Of a DNA stretch of 64,000 bases, positions 12,001 to 27,000 are shown piece by piece (positions within the stretch are counted from its first letter, which is position 1; every line of letters starts with the position of its first letter). Location: assembly GCF_054482595.1 (NCBI RefSeq), contig NZ_CM137008.1; one strand, written 5' to 3'. The position numbers are program-made.

Positions 12001-15000
12001 CTATAACCTTTCAATGTTCCGTCGCGGTTCACGCCCATTTGCCCGTCAATAGTAAAAGCGTGGCGGGTACGGGTTGCGAGGAAACACTCTTCACGGCTAA
12101 GGGAAACTTTCACCGGAATGCCGCCAAGCTTGCTGGTCAGGAATGCCGCCATTGGCTCTTCCAGTACATCCTGTTTATTACCAAAACCGCCACCGACAAA
12201 TGGTTTGATGACTCGTACGCATGACCAGGGAATATCCAGCGCCTGACCAACCACGCGGCGAACAATGTGCGGGATCTGGGTGCTGGAAACGATGGTAATT
12301 CGCGAGTCATCCTCCATCCACGCCAGCGATGTTACGCTTTCCATGTGACAATGTTGAATAACGGGAGTCTGATAGTGCCCCTGTACCTGGTAGTCGGCGG
12401 CATCGATTGTTTGTTGGACATTGCCCGTCGACATCGTGCTTTGTTTCAGTAAATTGCCGCCGTTATGGATTGGTGCAGCGTCCTCTGCCAGCGCCGCTTC
12501 TGGCGTGGTGATAACGGGTAATTCTTGCCACTCAATGCTGACCAATTGCGCCGCTTTTTCTGCCGTGAGTTCATCGCGGGCCACGACGATGGCAACGGCG
12601 TCACCATGATGACGAACATGGCGAGTTAGCAGTGCGCGATCGGCGGTATCGCGCTTGTTTTCGTCAAGTGTCCATGCATGCCCAGCTGTAGCGAATGGGA
12701 TATCAGGCACATCTTCCCAGGTAAAAATCGCCAGTACGCCTGGTAAACTTCTGGCTTGTTCATCATTAATACTTACGGCATAACCATGTGCGATAGGGCT
12801 ACGTACATATTTCGCATAACACATGCCCGCCATAACATAATCGTCAGTATATCGTGCCCGCCCGGTGACCTTAGCAATGGCATCAACGCGCATGCATGAT
12901 TCACCCGTAGCGGTTGCTTCCCGCGCTTCCATAGAAATCCCCTCGATTTGAACATTTGGTTCTTATGGCAAAGATTTAGTCTAAGCAGGCAAGATTTACG
13001 CCAGAAACGACGATAAGCGTTAGGGGAGGAAGGAAGTGTGATGACGTTAAAAAAACACAGATATGATACGAAACAGGACTCTGAATAGGGGCAGTGATAC
13101 GTATCAATATGAGTGGCGATAAAATCAATGTGATAAATTGGGATTATTACGCATCAGGATGGGAAATAGGGTAAAAAAGTCAGGAAATTCGATACCTCTA
13201 CAGTGAATATTTTGCTGATGATACTTCCCTTTGCCAAATGAAATTAACCTCTTTCTCTATTACCGCGTTTTTCCAGAAGCAAGAGATTGGGTATCAAGAG
13301 GCTGGCTGCTATGATATGGCGTCTTGTTTTTTAAGCGAGGAAAGATTTTGAGTGCGGGACGCCTGAATAAAAAATCTCTGGGTATCGTGATGTTGTTATC
13401 GGTTGGACTGCTTTTGGTGGGCTGTTCGGGTAGCAAATCATCCGATACAGGAACGTATTCCGGCTCCGTTTACACCGTGAAACGGGGGGATACGCTATAT
13501 CGTATTTCGCGCACCACGGGAACCAGCGTAAAAGAGCTGGCGCGACTGAACGGCATTTCCCCCCCTTACACCATTGAAGTTGGTCAGAAACTAAAACTGG
13601 GTGGGGCGAAAAGTAGCAGTAGTACACGTAAATCAACCGCCAAATCAACGACCAAAACCGCATCGGTTACACCGTCATCAGCGGTACCGAAATCTTCCTG
13701 GCCGCCAGTAGGGCAACGTTGTTGGTTATGGCCAACGACAGGGAAAGTTATCATGCCGTATTCGACAGCAGATGGCGGCAATAAAGGGATTGATATCTCA
13801 GCTCCACGGGGTACACCTATTTACGCCGCGGGTGCAGGAAAGGTGGTGTATGTGGGCAACCAGCTGCGTGGCTACGGTAATCTCATCATGATTAAACACA
13901 GTGAAGATTACATTACGGCTTACGCCCATAATGACACGATGCTGGTAAATAATGGGCAAAGCGTGAAGGCTGGGCAAAAAATCGCCACCATGGGGAGCAC
14001 GGATGCGGCATCTGTTCGCCTGCATTTCCAGATTCGTTACCGTGCAACGGCAATTGATCCGCTACGTTACTTGCCGCCGCAGGGCAGCAAGCCAAAATGC
14101 TGATGGCGAATTAATCAGCAGTCAGCAGCGCGGCACTTGCTAAGGAGAGCGTAAGGTTTATAATGCCTTACGCATCTCGAAGCGGGCGTAGTTCAATGGT
14201 AGAACGAGAGCTTCCCAAGCTCTATACGAGGGTTCGATTCCCTTCGCCCGCTCCAAAACTTCCCTAACGTATTCATTCCACTATCTTTTTCTAAACTATA
14301 CGTGACGGCGCTCGTGATCCTCCTACAAAGGGGTCATACAGCCGATGTCGCAGCGTGATAATCTCTATCGCCGTCCAAGTGGTATCTATGTTCTTCGGAT
14401 CACTGTTCCGGTTCGTTATCGCGCCCTTATAGGGCAGCGTGAAATTCATGCATCTACCCGCACAACCCACCTTGCAAATGCCAGAGCTATTGCCGCGTGT
14501 TTGCTGGAGAAGTGGTATGCGTCTCTGGAAGAGTTCAGGCAAGTGGATAAAGAGAAGATCAGGGGCAATGCCCCATTGTTGACTGGCGCTGGCAAAATCA
14601 GCCTGGCGTTGTTTTGCGATTCATTTGGGGTTGGGGTTGAGACTGTCGTCCAGCATCTTCTGGCAGACAATGTGCCGCTGTATGCCCTTGTGTCGAACCA
14701 GCGTGGCTTTTTGATTGATGATTTCAGCACTCTTGAGCGTGATCCTGATACGCATGGGTTCGTTTTGACTAATATTGCGTATGACGGTGCTGAGGCTGCG
14801 GTGAACGGCTATATGCAGCTTTACCAGCCTCAGTTTGCCCTTGTTGAATTGCTGAACGGGCGAGAGGTTGAGGTTACGGCATTCAGGGCTAACAACGGCA
14901 ACCCTCTTTCCCTCTGGTTGTTGGATTTACCCGGGGTGACGCTGAATGCAAGTTCTTTGTTCATCAACAACGTGCAGGCTGAAAAACTGCGTTACGTCTG

Positions 15001-24000: not shown

Positions 24001-27000
24001 ATTACTGAATAAATAAACAGCTACCACATGAGGTGAATGGCCGCACGTTTTATCTGGCACTGATAACTATCAGCATTCCTAAAACACCAAAATACGGGTG
24101 CGTTACGTAGGCGTTACAGTGGCGTTTCACTTCAGCAATGGAGAGTGCTTTTGAAAAATAATCATTTGATATCATATGGTTTCCTAACCTCGCTGAGTGA
24201 TATTGAATTACTGTCGCTTCACTCCGAAATTTTAACGCAGTTGCGTTTTAGAGGTGTCATTCGCACCAAGAATAATCCTGTTGGTGACTATGCTGAATGG
24301 CTGGTTTCTAATGCACTGGGTATGACTCTTCTCAGTAATTCGTCGGCGGGTGCTGATGCCATTGATGCTGATGGCCTGAAAGTGCAGATCAAAGCTAGGA
24401 GAGTTACGCCGGATAATCCTTCCCGGCAGCTTAGTGCCTTGCGTAACTATGAGGCAGCCGAATTTGATTATTTAATCGCGGTTATTTTCGATGAGACTTA
24501 CAACATTCTTGATGCTTACAAAATCCCACATGAAGTAATACGAGATTATGCACGGCATAGTGACCACGTTAACGCACATATCGTTAACCTCAAGGGCGCG
24601 ATTCTTACTGATCCCCGAGTTAGTTCCATCAAAGAAGACTTGATTGTCAGGAGTTCGGCTTCAGTCAATGAAGCGGCTATGCAAACCCTTCCACCCGAAC
24701 CTATGGAAGAGGTTTTGAATCAACCAGAGAAGATAACGAGTAGTGTTACCTTGGTCAGCCTCCTTAAGGCTATCGGGATGGAGTGCTTTGTAAACTACTA
24801 CCATCATTTTGCCGATTCAAATTTATCAAGCGCTGATATCATTGAGCAAATGCACTCACGTGAGGGTTACACAGAGAAAAGTTGCCGGGGCCGTCTCAGT
24901 AAAGCGCGAAAAGTGATCAGGGATGGTTTAAGTATTGAGGCTTTGACGTTGATCGCTGACTCTGGGCGAATACAAGATTCTGTCAGAAGTGACGCGCTAA
25001 AACTTATCAGCGTTCTGGAGTGAAGCGGTTTGCAAAACGTTGTAGTTCCTCCTACAAAACCCTCCTACAATGCACCGGTAATGACTCCAACTTATTGATA
25101 GTGTTTTATGTTCAGATAATGCCCGATGACTTTGTCATGCAGCTCCACCGATTTTGAGAACGACAGCGACTTCCGTCCCAGCCGTGCCAGGTGCTGCCTC
25201 AGATTCAGGTTATGCCGCTCAATTCGCTGCGTATATCGCTTGCTGATTACGTGCAGCTTTCCCTTCAGGCGGGATTCATACAGCGGCCAGCCATCCGTCA
25301 TCCATATCACCACGTCAAAGGGTGACAGCAGGCTCATAAGACGCCCCAGCGTCGCCATAGTGCGTTCACCGAATACGTGCGCAACAACCGTCTTCCGGAG
25401 CCTGTCATACGCGTAAAACAGCCAGCGCTGGCGCGATTTAGCCCCGACGTATCCCCACTGTTCGTCCATTTCCGCGCAGACGATGACGTCACTGCCCGGC
25501 TGTATGCGCGAGGTTACCGACTGCGGCCTGAGTTTTTTAGGCACTGTTGCAAAGTTAGCGATGAGGCAGCCTTTTGTCTTATTCAAAGGCCTTACATTTC
25601 AAAAACTCTGCTTACCAGGCGCATTTCGCCCAGGGGATCACCATAATAAAATGCTGAGGCCTGGCCTTTGCGTAGTGCACGCATCACCTCAATACCTTTG
25701 ATGGTGGCGTAAGCCGTCTTCATGGATTTAAATCCCAGCGTGGCGCCGATTATCCGTTTCAGTTTGCCATGATCGCATTCAATCACGTTGTTCCGGTACT
25801 TAATCTGTCGGTGTTCAACGTCAGACGGGCACCGGCCTTCGCGTTTGAGCAGAGCAAGCGCGCGACCATAGGCGGGCGCTTTATCCGTGTTGATGAATCG
25901 CGGGATCTGCCACTTCTTCACGTTGTTGAGGATTTTACCCAGAAACCGGTATGCAGCTTTGCTGTTACGACGGGAGGAGAGATAAAAATCGACAGTGCGG
26001 CCCCGGCTGTCGACGGCCCGGTACAGATACGCCCAGCGGCCATTGACCTTCACGTAGGTTTCATCCATGTGCCACGGGCAAAGATCGGAAGGGTTACGCC
26101 AGTACCAGCGCAGCCGTTTTTCCATTTCAGGCGCATAACGCTGAACCCAGCGGTAAATCGTGGAGTGATCGACATTCACTCCGCGTTCAGCCAGCATCTC
26201 CTGCAGCTCACGGTAACTGATGCCGTATTTGCAGTACCAGCGTACGGCCCACAGAATGATGTCACGCTGAAAATGCCGGCCTTTGAATGGGTTCATGTGC
26301 AGCTCCATCAGCAAAAGGGGATGATAAGTTTATCACCACCGACTATTTGCAACAGTGCCTCCTTTTTGATAATCTCATGACCAAAATCCCTTAACGTGAG
26401 TTTTCGTTCCACTGAGCGTCAGACCCCGTATAGTGTTTTGCAGTTTAGAGGAGATATCGCGATGCATACGCGGAAGGCAATAACGGAGGCGCTTCAAAAA
26501 CTCGGAGTCCAAACCGGTGACCTCTTGATGGTGCATGCCTCACTTAAAGCGATTGGTCCGGTCGAAGGAGGAGCGGAGACGGTCGTTGCCGCGTTACGCT
26601 CCGCGGTTGGGCCGACTGGCACTGTGATGGGATACGCGTCGTGGGACCGATCACCCTACGAGGAGACTCTGAATGGCGCTCGGCTGGATGACGAAGCCCG
26701 CCGTACCTGGCTGCCGTTCGATCCCGCAACAGCCGGGACTTACCGTGGGTTCGGCCTGCTGAATCAATTTCTGGTTCAAGCCCCCGGCGCGCGGCGCAGC
26801 GCGCACCCCGATGCATCGATGGTCGCGGTTGGTCCGCTGGCTGAAACGCTGACGGAGCCTCACGAACTCGGTCACGCCTTGGGGGAAGGATCGCCCGTCG
26901 AGCGGTTCGTTCGCCTTGGCGGGAAGGCCCTGCTGTTGGGTGCGCCGCTAAACTCCGTTACCGCATTGCACTACGCCGAGGCGGTTGCCGATATCCCCAA

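What the first reader, a model, noticed from the sequence alone, without database searches (positions are those of the whole stretch)
14182..25076. Integrase-bearing island next to glyU; far boundary not identifiable
A 647-aa tyrosine recombinase gene starts 90 bp after tRNA-Gly(CCC), followed by cargo with mixed GC content (recombinase, AIPR-like gene, IS2, secreted protein, regulator pair). I could not find a direct repeat of the tRNA 3' end at the distal side; the island appears truncated by the IS1 at 25077.
Basis: partly seen in the sequence, partly recalled or inferred. Interest (0 to 1): 0.5.

Follow-up and report, generated by a model that had tools for sequence, protein, structure and literature searches.

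The report
Truncated phage-defence mini-island at glyU
This is a small mobile DNA island inserted in the glyU tRNA gene that carries anti-phage genes; an IS1-linked deletion has removed its far end, so it can no longer excise, and it belongs to a widespread, apparently unnamed family of very small tRNA-integrating elements.

Summary
tRNA-Gly(CCC) lies at 14182-14255, an intact 647-aa tyrosine integrase gene starts 90 bp later, and the window holds no second copy of the tRNA 3' end.

Eleven other E. coli genomes carry the identical island intact. It is 9,557 bp long and ends in an 18-bp repeat of the tRNA 3' end (TTCCCTTCGCCCGCTCCA), directly followed by the sequence that abuts glyU in island-free strains. 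The window lacks the last 72 bp, including this attR, plus about 10 kb of the neighbouring ETT2 secretion island. An IS1-associated deletion removed them; the split halves of the original IS1 target duplication show this. An IS2 is also inserted.

Only about 45 of 5,412 complete E. coli genomes have this integrase junction, so the island is accessory.

The cargo is anti-phage defence: an AIPR/AbiU-like gene and an Eco15I-type methylcytosine-dependent restriction enzyme.

The island belongs to a family of 5.5-11 kb elements at tRNA-Gly, Leu, Thr and Arg genes across Proteobacteria. The family core is a roughly 650-aa integrase, a small serine recombinase, usually an XRE regulator, and often a protein with a rolling-circle replication-initiator fold.

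As a genomic island this is ordinary. The family itself is moderately interesting.

The parts
14182..14255 (+). glyU, tRNA-Gly(CCC). Its last 18 nt (14238-14255, TTCCCTTCGCCCGCTCCA) are the attL core.
   Evidence: ARAGORN. An 18-bp direct repeat lies 9,557 bp downstream in intact copies.
14256..25076 (.). The retained part of the island: 10,821 bp, made of 9,485 bp of island plus a 1,331-bp IS2 and its 5-bp duplication. The last 72 bp, including attR, are missing.
   Evidence: BLAST against the intact island in GF66.1. Homology to island-free genomes breaks at 14256.
14319..14328 (+). CCTCCTACAA motif about 17 nt upstream of the integrase start codon. Candidate arm-type integrase-binding site (inferred).
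   Evidence: (repeat D7). The same motif and position are conserved family-wide, including tRNA-Leu and Burkholderiales elements.
14345..16288 (+). 647-aa tyrosine integrase (DUF6538 plus Phage_integrase), apparently intact.
   Evidence: Identical to WP_021557174.1 in intact islands.
16462..16677 (+). orf71, a small conserved gene not annotated in the RefSeq copies. Function unknown; a recombination directionality factor is one possibility (speculative).
   Evidence: phrog_27283, E 9e-19. Synonymous changes far outnumber non-synonymous ones in relatives: 14:3, 17:3 and 10:3. No Pfam match.
17036..18052 (-). 338-aa protein with the fold of Rep_trans rolling-circle replication initiators. Candidate nickase: replication initiator or relaxase.
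18207..18305 (-). DUF1643 pseudogene remnant. The gene is intact (155 aa) in related elements.
   Evidence: RefSeq annotation of the identical islands, transferred by coordinate offset. Intact copies in L005 and L006.
18344..18455 (+). Conserved cluster of recombinase-site-like repeats upstream of the serine recombinase gene. It has a 26-bp imperfect palindrome, CGCCAACAAACG-AC-CGTTTTCTGGCA (18344-18369), plus half-sites at 18413-18424 and 18444-18455. Candidate res site (inferred).
   Evidence: (repeat D12). These columns are invariant in 5 elements even where the upstream sequence diverges.
18472..19041 (+). Small serine recombinase (resolvase/invertase type, 189 aa). The most constant partner of the integrase across the family.
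   Evidence: phrog_125, E 8.8e-58. NF009949 scores 98.9 bits, below its cut-off of 272. Present in 23 of 24 delimited elements.
19128..20903 (-). AIPR-family abortive-infection-type protein (591 aa) in a low-GC cargo slot.
   Evidence: PADLOC AbiU, E 1.7e-29, and MzaE, 4.7e-13. phrog_1841 'Abi alpha-like', E 6e-93. GC 0.32-0.35. Replaced by other genes in sister elements.
21200..22530 (+). IS2 insertion (1,331 bp) with a 5-bp duplication, GCGAC, at 21195-21199 and 22531-22535. Absent from the intact islands.
22641..23492 (-). Predicted exported protein (283-aa ORF; RefSeq calls a 250-aa product starting at 23393). Conserved in several enterobacterial relatives; function unknown.
   Evidence: Signal-peptide-like N-terminus read from the sequence. 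84% identical in the O157:H7 leuX element. No Pfam match.
23448..23975 (+). XRE-family HTH regulator (RefSeq product 154 aa, from 23511). A backbone gene, not specific to the restriction enzyme.
   Evidence: PADLOC 'control protein', 3.4e-18; NCBIfam RstR-like, 3.6e-8. Present in elements that lack the Eco15I-like gene.
24145..25023 (+). Eco15I-type BisI-family restriction endonuclease, dependent on 5-methylcytosine (292 aa: catalytic N-terminal domain plus a C-terminal domain of unknown role).
   Evidence: PDB 8q5m (Eco15I N-terminal domain), E 2e-102, near-identical over aa 10-181. PADLOC mREase_II, 5e-70. Biochemistry in PMC11347163.
25048..25070 (+). Two CCTCCTACAA motifs (25048-25057 and 25061-25070). 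Candidate right-arm integrase-binding sites; the last island sequence before the IS1.
25077..25539 (-). Left 463 bp of IS1, cut by IS26 at 25540. This is the deletion junction that removed attR.
38853..39018 (-). Right 157 bp of the same IS1 (38853-39009), plus the surviving right copy of its 9-bp target duplication, AGACTCAGG (39010-39018), in ETT2.

Best explanation
Window 14256-25076 is an immobilised copy of a 9.56-kb site-specific integrative element that inserted into the 3' end of glyU.

Shown:
- The element integrated by recombination at an 18-bp core identical to the tRNA 3' end. This regenerated the tRNA and left a second core copy (attR) at the far end in intact copies.
- The window copy lost its last 72 bp, including attR, together with 10.0 kb of the adjacent ETT2 island, through a deletion anchored on an IS1. 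That IS1 was later split by an IS26-bounded multiresistance region.
- An IS2 sits between the AIPR gene and the exported-protein gene.
- The DUF1643 gene is a pseudogene.

Inferred from homology:
- The cargo defends against phage. The AIPR/AbiU-like protein would act by abortive infection. The Eco15I-type enzyme cuts GCNGC sites carrying several 5-methyl- or 5-hydroxymethylcytosines, and so would target phages with modified DNA.

Inferred life cycle of intact family members:
- The integrase, with CTACAA-type arm sites on both arms, excises a circle.
- The Rep_trans-fold protein nicks the circle, either for rolling-circle replication or for transfer by a helper.
- The serine recombinase resolves multimers at the res-like site upstream of its gene.
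- The XRE protein represses the system.
- The outward-facing XRE/Eco15I genes would read across attP into the integrase gene in the circle, much like Pcirc in ICEclc.

Without attR, the window copy cannot excise through its integrase. It is now a fixed defence locus.
For: Boundaries
- Homology with 5,367 other genomes stops at 14256.
- In GF66.1 the island ends with TTCCCTTCGCCCGCTCCA, followed by ATTTATCTTC. That is exactly what follows glyU in K-12.
- Eleven genomes carry the identical intact island.

Deletion
- Window 25076 corresponds to L001:15741, and 25077 to the IS1 at L001:25814.
- The IS1 target duplication is shared between the window and GF66.1.

Integrase
- The catalytic residues are invariant.
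- Relatives at 80-94% identity sit next to tRNA-Gly(CCC) in Enterobacter, Pluralibacter, Kosakonia and Yersinia.

Family
- A repeat of the tRNA 3' end lies 5.5-10.8 kb downstream in 23 elements.
- Census of delimited elements: integrase 24/24, serine recombinase 23/24, XRE 15/24, Rep-like 10/24.
- The minimal 5.5-kb element consists of the integrase, a Rep-like gene, the serine recombinase and one further ORF.
- The O157:H7 leuX element has an 83-90% identical backbone but only a 37% identical integrase.

Cargo.

Rep-like fold.

att precedent
- The same 18-mer is the experimentally verified att site of ICEPni2, an ICEclc-family element in tRNA-Gly(CCC) (PMC7466150).
- IntB13 is an unusually long P4-family integrase that uses an 18-bp tRNA-Gly core (PMC5812530).

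No terminator-like site lies between the Eco15I-like gene and attR.
Against: - No excision, circular form, replication, transfer or defence phenotype was observed; all function is inferred.
- The Rep-like gene is absent from 14 of 24 delimited elements, including most enterobacterial ones, so it is not essential to the family.
- Its similarity to Rep_trans is structural (14-15% identity). The catalytic tyrosine was not mapped.
- The serine recombinase scores below the curated cut-off of every NCBIfam model. Its res-like site is inferred from repeats only.
- The arm-site motif occurs at about chance frequency across the whole window (4 matches against 2.5 expected). Its significance rests on conserved position across relatives.
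- Homology between this integrase and IntB13 itself was not tested.
Confidence: 0.85

Rival explanations
1. The segment is the decayed stump of a much larger element, such as an ICEclc-type conjugative element or a prophage, that once sat at glyU. It is not a self-contained small element.
For: - The integrase resembles ICEclc-type integrases in length and in its 18-bp tRNA-Gly target.
- The window copy is visibly damaged: IS2, IS1 and a pseudogene.
- Some family integrases in Comamonadaceae and Burkholderiales have no repeat within 12 kb and may belong to larger elements.
Against: - Intact copies are bounded by exact repeats only 9.6 kb apart. The sequence beyond attR is the normal glyU flank.
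- 23 relatives in several orders are delimited at 5.5-10.8 kb with the same core genes.
- No conjugation, capsid or tail gene was detected by PHROGs, NCBIfam or PADLOC.
Confidence: 0.05
2. The integrase and its neighbours are the mobility module of the ETT2 type III secretion island, which is the known occupant of glyU, so the whole forms one pathogenicity island.
For: ETT2 lies directly next to glyU in K-12 and O157:H7. In the window, the island and the ETT2 remnants are contiguous apart from the resistance region.
Against: - In intact strains a complete attR separates the island from the first ETT2-side gene, GH15.
- Strains carrying ETT2 without the island have glyU joined directly to the same ETT2 flank.
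- The element occurs at glyU in genera where no ETT2 genes were seen in the 10-kb flanks, and at other tRNAs.
Confidence: 0.03
3. It is a phage satellite that is packaged by a helper phage rather than mobilised by conjugation. It could be P4-like or PICI-like, or a satellite of filamentous phages, given the rolling-circle initiator fold and the RstR-like repressor.
For: - Small size, an integrase at a tRNA gene, a repressor and defence cargo are typical of satellites.
- AFDB neighbours of the 338-aa protein include a 'G2P N-terminal domain' protein (filamentous-phage gene II type).
- The XRE protein hits the RstR family.
- There are weak BFVD hits to Inoviridae Rep proteins.
Against: - No primase, capsid-remodelling, terminase-small-subunit or packaging genes were found.
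- The only similarity to 50,697 phage records is one weak hit to the recombinase.
- The BFVD matches have TM-scores of 0.4 or less.
- The Rep-like gene is missing from most enterobacterial members.
Confidence: 0.07

Closest known systems
Integrase-only defence-carrying mobile islands at E. coli tRNA hotspots (Hochhauser et al. 2023, PMC10121019); 'GI-glyU' is named as a hotspot in E. coli ST101 (bioRxiv 10.1101/860726)
   Same: A small island at a tRNA hotspot, present in a minority of strains. It carries an integrase or recombinase plus defence genes and no recognisable transfer machinery.
   Different: Those papers describe the category, not this family. Here the att sites, the conserved core (long integrase, serine recombinase, XRE and sometimes a Rep-like gene) and the cross-order distribution are defined. 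No paper in the searched library mentions DUF6538.
ICEclc / ICEPni2 integration module (IntB13-type integrase)
   Same: An unusually long (about 650 aa) tyrosine integrase encoded right next to a tRNA-Gly gene. The 18-bp core equals the tRNA 3' end, and the 18-mer is identical to the ICEPni2 att site. No excisionase is known for ICEclc, and its far end has an outward-facing promoter.
   Different: ICEclc elements are about 100-kb conjugative elements with a type IV secretion system. This element is 9.6 kb with none. Sequence homology to IntB13 itself was not tested.
Integrative mobilizable elements with Rep_trans-family (MOB_T) relaxases in Firmicutes (PMC7563843, PMC6499999)
   Same: Small integrated elements with their own recombinase and a Rep_trans-fold protein that can serve as a relaxase.
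   Different: Those elements are in Gram-positive bacteria and have recognisable Rep_trans domains and known oriT sites. Here the similarity is structural only, the host is proteobacterial, no oriT is identified, and many family members lack the gene.
Eco15I (BisI-family modification-dependent restriction endonuclease; PDB 8q5m/8q5o; PMC11347163)
   Same: The gene at 24145-25023 encodes a near-identical N-terminal catalytic domain plus the same extra C-terminal domain.
   Different: A handful of N-terminal substitutions. The papers characterise the enzyme but do not describe it as cargo of a glyU-integrated mobile element.

Membership tests
tRNA-integrated genomic island with tyrosine integrase | An integrase with the complete catalytic set, encoded next to the target tRNA. 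| tested here: met
tRNA-integrated genomic island with tyrosine integrase | Direct repeats of the tRNA 3' end at both ends. | tested here: not met
   The window has only one copy. The feature is met in intact identical islands, with an 18-bp repeat 9,557 bp apart. The window copy is therefore a truncated member.
tRNA-integrated genomic island with tyrosine integrase | A precise empty site in other strains. | tested here: met
   K-12 and O157:H7 join glyU directly to the sequence that follows attR. 5,367 of 5,412 genomes lack this junction.
tRNA-integrated genomic island with tyrosine integrase | Excision to a circular form. | not testable with these tools
   Needs PCR or read-level data from a strain with an intact copy.
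ICEclc-family integrative conjugative element | A long IntB13-type integrase using an 18-bp tRNA-Gly 3' core. | tested here: inconclusive
   Length and the 18-mer match ICEPni2. Homology to IntB13 itself was not tested because no IntB13 sequence was available.
ICEclc-family integrative conjugative element | A conjugation core (type IV secretion system and relaxase) of tens of kilobases. | tested here: not met
   The element is 9.6 kb and has no such genes.
Anti-phage defence island | Contains homologues of known defence proteins. | tested here: met
   AbiU/AIPR at E 1.7e-29; type II methyl-directed restriction enzyme at 5e-70; Eco15I at 2e-102. Sister elements carry Shedu and AAA ATPase genes in the same slots.
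Anti-phage defence island | A demonstrated protective phenotype. | not testable with these tools
   Phage plating assays are needed.
Rep_trans (PF02486) rolling-circle initiators / MOB_T relaxases (338-aa protein) | A significant match to the Pfam model. | tested here: not met
   The window protein has no Pfam hit even at E 10. Only 1 of 31 homologues reaches 8.7e-4.
Rep_trans (PF02486) rolling-circle initiators / MOB_T relaxases (338-aa protein) | The Rep_trans fold. | tested here: met
Rep_trans (PF02486) rolling-circle initiators / MOB_T relaxases (338-aa protein) | A catalytic tyrosine and metal-binding residues in equivalent positions. | not tested
   Y201, K203, E128, D132, R217, R219 and E221 are invariant in 31 homologues. 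They were not superposed on the RepD active site.
Hin/Gin-type DNA invertase (189-aa serine recombinase) | Two inverted crossover sites flanking an invertible segment. | tested here: not met
   Only one full 26-bp palindromic site was found, plus two same-strand half-sites. No inversion was seen among the 11 identical islands. The layout fits a res site better.
Phage satellites (P4-like, PICI) | Primase or replicase together with capsid- or packaging-hijack genes. | tested here: not met
   PHROGs hits cover only the integrase, invertase, Abi protein and regulator. No meaningful match in the phage collection.

The most novel reading that the evidence does not exclude
The island represents an undescribed, cross-order family of minimal 'hitcher' elements of 5.5-11 kb. 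Its ancestral kit would be a long arm-binding tyrosine integrase, a divergent Rep_trans-fold nickase, a serine resolvase with its own res site, and an XRE repressor. The integrase module is swapped to retarget different tRNA genes (Gly-CCC, Leu-CAA, Thr-CGT, Arg-CCG). The slots between core genes shuttle anti-phage genes (AIPR, Eco15I, Shedu, AAA ATPases) among Enterobacterales, Pseudomonas and Burkholderiales. After excision the circle would replicate by rolling circle and/or be handed to a helper conjugative element or filamentous phage.
Probability: 0.35. Interest if true: 0.6.

Novelty: new member of a known kind. Interest (0 to 1): 0.4.

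Why it matters
For this genome, the result explains the locus fully. A defence mini-island landed at glyU next to ETT2. IS1 then deleted its excision site together with a third of ETT2. The same IS1 became the entry point for a chromosomal multiresistance region.

More generally, three points stand out.
- It gives the well-studied enzyme Eco15I a genomic context, as cargo of a mobile element.
- It defines exact att sites and a conserved core for one of the 'integrase-only' defence islands whose mode of spread is an acknowledged open question.
- It points to a testable candidate for that spread: a cryptic protein with a rolling-circle-initiator fold, plus a resolvase.

Tried and rejected
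- I first read hits H4-H10 as sharing the window's IS1 junction. One search showed those strains carry the intact island with attR, so the idea was dropped. SM107 does appear to share the junction.
- I took the XRE gene for the C-protein of the restriction gene (PADLOC 'control protein'). This was rejected because the XRE gene is kept in elements that lack the Eco15I-like gene.
- I looked for an invertible segment for the 'invertase'. There is only one full crossover-like site and no inversion among the identical copies. Single-strand folding of the site region is not better than shuffled sequence (z +1.67).
- I searched for phage relatives of the backbone and found essentially none.
- Sequence searches gave nothing for the 338-aa protein (Pfam, NCBIfam, PADLOC, PHROGs, PDB), the exported protein or orf71. 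Only the structure-based search was informative.
- I tried to capture IntB13 itself through the genome-contig scan. It was not among the 80 loci returned out of 540 relatives. The weaker Pseudomonas hits sit at tmRNA or other sites, not tRNA-Gly. The IntB13 relationship therefore stays untested.
- One delimited 'element' (L053) was discarded because its repeat is a second complete tRNA-Leu gene.

Full report
**1. The observation**

ARAGORN finds one tRNA in the window, tRNA-Gly(CCC) at 14182-14255. This is glyU, because the upstream genes are xdhA and actS, as in K-12.

A 647-aa ORF starts at 14345, 90 bp after the tRNA. It carries Pfam DUF6538 (aa 6-66) and Phage_integrase (aa 438-605). In an alignment of 15 homologues down to 37% identity, R446, K492, H566, R569, H592 and Y603 are invariant. 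That is the full tyrosine-recombinase catalytic set.

The last 16 nt of the tRNA occur only once in 64 kb, even with two mismatches allowed. An IS1 end starts at 25077.

**2. Boundaries**

A 1.1-kb probe across actS, glyU and the start of the integrase matches 5,412 of 5,426 complete E. coli genomes. Only 45 of them continue past window position 14256; the rest stop one base after the tRNA.

Strain GF66.1 (L001) carries the same island without IS2 and without the IS1 junction. There the island ends with ...GGTGATTTCCCTTCGCCCGCTCCA. This is an 18-bp exact repeat of the tRNA 3' end, 9,557 bp downstream of the first copy. It is followed by ATTTATCTTC..., which is exactly what follows glyU in K-12 and O157:H7. 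The insertion is therefore precise, and the tRNA is regenerated.

Eleven genomes hold the identical intact island plus flanks at 99.9-100% identity.

The window matches L001 up to position 15741 (window 25076) and then jumps to the IS1 at L001:25814. L001:15742-25813 is therefore missing, a total of 10,072 bp. This covers the last 72 bp of the island with attR, plus the GH15 gene and ETT2 genes through sctN.

**3. How the end was lost**

Against an IS1-free ETT2 (O157:H7, L089), the left flank of the IS1 in GF66.1 ends in ...CAGACTCAGG. The right flank of the IS1 remnant in the window begins AGACTCAGG (39010-39018). These are the two copies of the 9-bp target duplication of a single ancestral IS1 insertion. 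The window lineage later lost everything to the left of that IS1 as far as the island. GF66.1 lost 170 bp to its right.

I cannot tell an IS1 adjacent deletion from recombination with a second IS1 copy.

The IS1 was then split into two pieces (1-463 at 25077-25539, and the last 157 bp at 38853-39009) by an IS26-bounded resistance region.

IS2 (21200-22530, with a GCGAC duplication) is a separate later insertion.

**4. Cargo**

- The 591-aa AIPR protein hits PADLOC AbiU (1.7e-29) and MzaE, and PHROG 1841 'Abi alpha-like' (6e-93).
Eco15I is a BisI-family endonuclease that cuts GCNGC only when several cytosines are methylated or hydroxymethylated. It has an extra C-terminal domain of unknown role (PMC11347163).
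- The XRE gene in front of it is kept in sister elements that lack the enzyme. It therefore belongs to the backbone.

**5. A family, not a one-off**

Other E. coli carry glyU islands with a 90% identical integrase, the same attR and different cargo: Shedu, NIPSNAP and DUF4468 in strain 16843, and an AAA ATPase in PapM-32-1. Their sizes are 10,200 and 10,814 bp.

O157:H7 has an 8.9-kb relative at tRNA-Leu(CAA), bounded by a 25-bp repeat. Its serine recombinase, exported protein and XRE gene are 84-90% identical to those in the window, but its integrase is only 37% identical. This indicates an exchange of the integrase module.

The integrase has 80-94% identical homologues in Yersinia, Klebsiella, Raoultella, Pectobacterium, Serratia and others, and roughly 40% homologues in Pseudomonas.

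A scan of one genome per species returned 540 relatives, of which 80 loci were kept. In nearly all full-length hits the gene lies about 90 nt downstream of a tRNA:
- Gly(CCC) in Enterobacterales and in Burkholderiales/Comamonadaceae;
- Thr(CGT);
- Leu(CAA);
- Arg(CCG).

A repeat of the tRNA 3' end lies 5.5-10.8 kb downstream in 19 of these loci. One further case is a second tRNA gene and was discarded.

Census of the delimited elements:

| Core gene | Elements with it |
|---|---|
| Integrase | 24/24 |
| Small serine recombinase | 23/24 |
| XRE-type regulator | 15/24 |
| Homologue of the 338-aa protein | 10/24 |

The smallest element (5,486 bp, a betaproteobacterial MAG) holds only an integrase, a distant homologue of the 338-aa protein (hhalign probability 98.3%), a serine recombinase and one further ORF.

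**6. The 338-aa protein**

It has no hit in Pfam, NCBIfam, PADLOC, PHROGs or PDB sequences.

AFDB50 neighbours include proteins annotated 'Replication initiation protein' and 'G2P N-terminal domain'. One homologue reaches Pfam Rep_trans at 8.7e-4. Invariant Y201, K203, E128, D132, R217, R219 and E221 fit a nickase active site, but they were not mapped onto RepD.

Rep_trans proteins are both plasmid replication initiators and MOB_T relaxases of ICEs and IMEs in Firmicutes. This makes replication of the excised circle, or its hand-over to a helper, a reasonable inference. It remains unproven.

**7. DNA sites**

- *Arm motif.* A CTACAA-type motif (CCTCCTACAA in the window) lies about 17 nt before the integrase start. 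It occurs twice 70-100 nt before the attR core. The same arrangement is seen in enterobacterial Gly elements, Leu elements and Burkholderiales Gly elements. These are candidate arm-type integrase sites. Across the window the motif is not enriched, so the argument rests on conserved position.
- *attR core.* It sits in a 9-bp inverted repeat, TGGAGCGGG...CCCGCTCCA.
- *Recombinase sites.* Upstream of the serine recombinase gene, a block is invariant in five elements. It contains a 26-bp imperfect palindrome (12-2-12, at 18344-18369) and two more half-sites. That layout fits a res site better than an invertase system. No second inverted full site and no inverted variants were found.
- *Read-through.* No terminator-like site separates the outward-facing XRE/Eco15I genes from attR. 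In a circle they could therefore read into the integrase gene, as Pcirc does in ICEclc. This is inference only.

**8. Comparison with known systems**

The exact 18-mer is the experimentally verified att site of ICEPni2, an ICEclc-family element at tRNA-Gly(CCC) (PMC7466150). IntB13 of ICEclc is described as an unusually long P4-family integrase using an 18-bp tRNA-Gly core, with no known excisionase (PMC5812530). So the integration module works like that of ICEclc. The element itself is not an ICE, since it is 9.6 kb with no secretion system. Homology to IntB13 could not be tested.

The general category of integrase-only, defence-carrying islands with unknown mobilisation at E. coli tRNA hotspots is described in PMC10121019. 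'GI-glyU' is named as a hotspot in ST101. No paper in the searched library mentions DUF6538. I found no description of this specific family, but the literature search was limited.

**9. Verdict**

The locus is an accessory integrative island at glyU, now fixed in place by an IS1-associated deletion. As such it is ordinary.

The added value is fourfold: the exact reconstruction of its boundaries and decay; the identification of the cargo as anti-phage defence, including an Eco15I orthologue; the recognition of a compact, modular element family across Proteobacteria; and a candidate replication or mobilisation protein found only by structure. All functional statements are inferences from homology and architecture.

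Noticed in passing
window 25540-38852: A chromosomal multiresistance region inserted into the IS1. It holds several IS26 copies, aac(3)-II, mph(A)-mrx-mphR, an IS6100-like IS6 element, an IS1182-family transposase and blaTEM. The IS1 is split into 25077-25539 and 38853-39009, with about 148 bp of its middle missing.
   Followed up: partly
window 39010-50270 and 50271-51038: The ETT2 type III secretion island is present only from the spaN/eivJ region onward; GH15 through sctN are deleted. A second, complete IS1 sits at 50271-51038 inside the K-12-like ETT2 remnant.
   Followed up: partly
L007:5200-14075 and L091:4001-5760 (plasmids pTB31P2, S30 plasmid C and about 100 others): Plasmids typed by MOB-suite as IncHI1B / MOBH carry island fragments without the integrase, flanked by IS1. 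The fragments hold the Rep-like gene, DUF1643, the recombinase, the XRE gene and the Eco15I-like gene. The right fragment still has attR plus 18 bp of the chromosomal glyU flank before the IS1, so it was captured from a chromosome by IS1.
   Followed up: yes
L006:4405-13306 (E. coli O157:H7, leuX): O157:H7 strains carry an 8.9-kb sister element at tRNA-Leu(CAA). Its backbone is 83-90% identical to the window's, but its integrase is only 37% identical. It is followed by a second, degenerate integrase and then Zorya and other defence genes. Several hundred E. coli genomes match in the 80-90% identity band.
   Followed up: partly
window 16462-16677: A 71-aa ORF not annotated by RefSeq in the identical islands. 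It is 93-96% conserved in relatives, with synonymous changes greatly outnumbering non-synonymous ones, and it matches phrog_27283. No domain was found.
   Followed up: partly
window 17649-17660 (L001:9650-9661), - strand: A one-mismatch copy of the recombinase half-site (CGATTTCTGGCA) lies in inverted orientation inside the 338-aa gene, about 700 bp from the site cluster. It could be chance or a secondary site.
   Followed up: no
L090 (E. coli SM107 chromosome): A relative of the window strain has the same junction between the Eco15I-like gene and IS1, plus an IS1-mediated inversion that splits the AIPR gene and a larger resistance region (dfrA12-aadA2-sul1, catA1). This shows repeated IS1/IS26 remodelling of the locus.
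   Followed up: partly
L011, L022, L031, L054: Records labelled Chryseobacterium sp., Collinsella MAG and Bacillota MAGs carry elements 84-90% identical to the enterobacterial ones, together with enterobacterial-type tRNA genes. Contamination or mis-binning is the likely explanation, not genuine cross-phylum spread.
   Followed up: no
L001:26582 compared with window 39010-39185: GF66.1 lacks 170-176 bp to the right of the shared IS1 that the window retains. This is an independent IS1-adjacent deletion in that lineage.
   Followed up: yes
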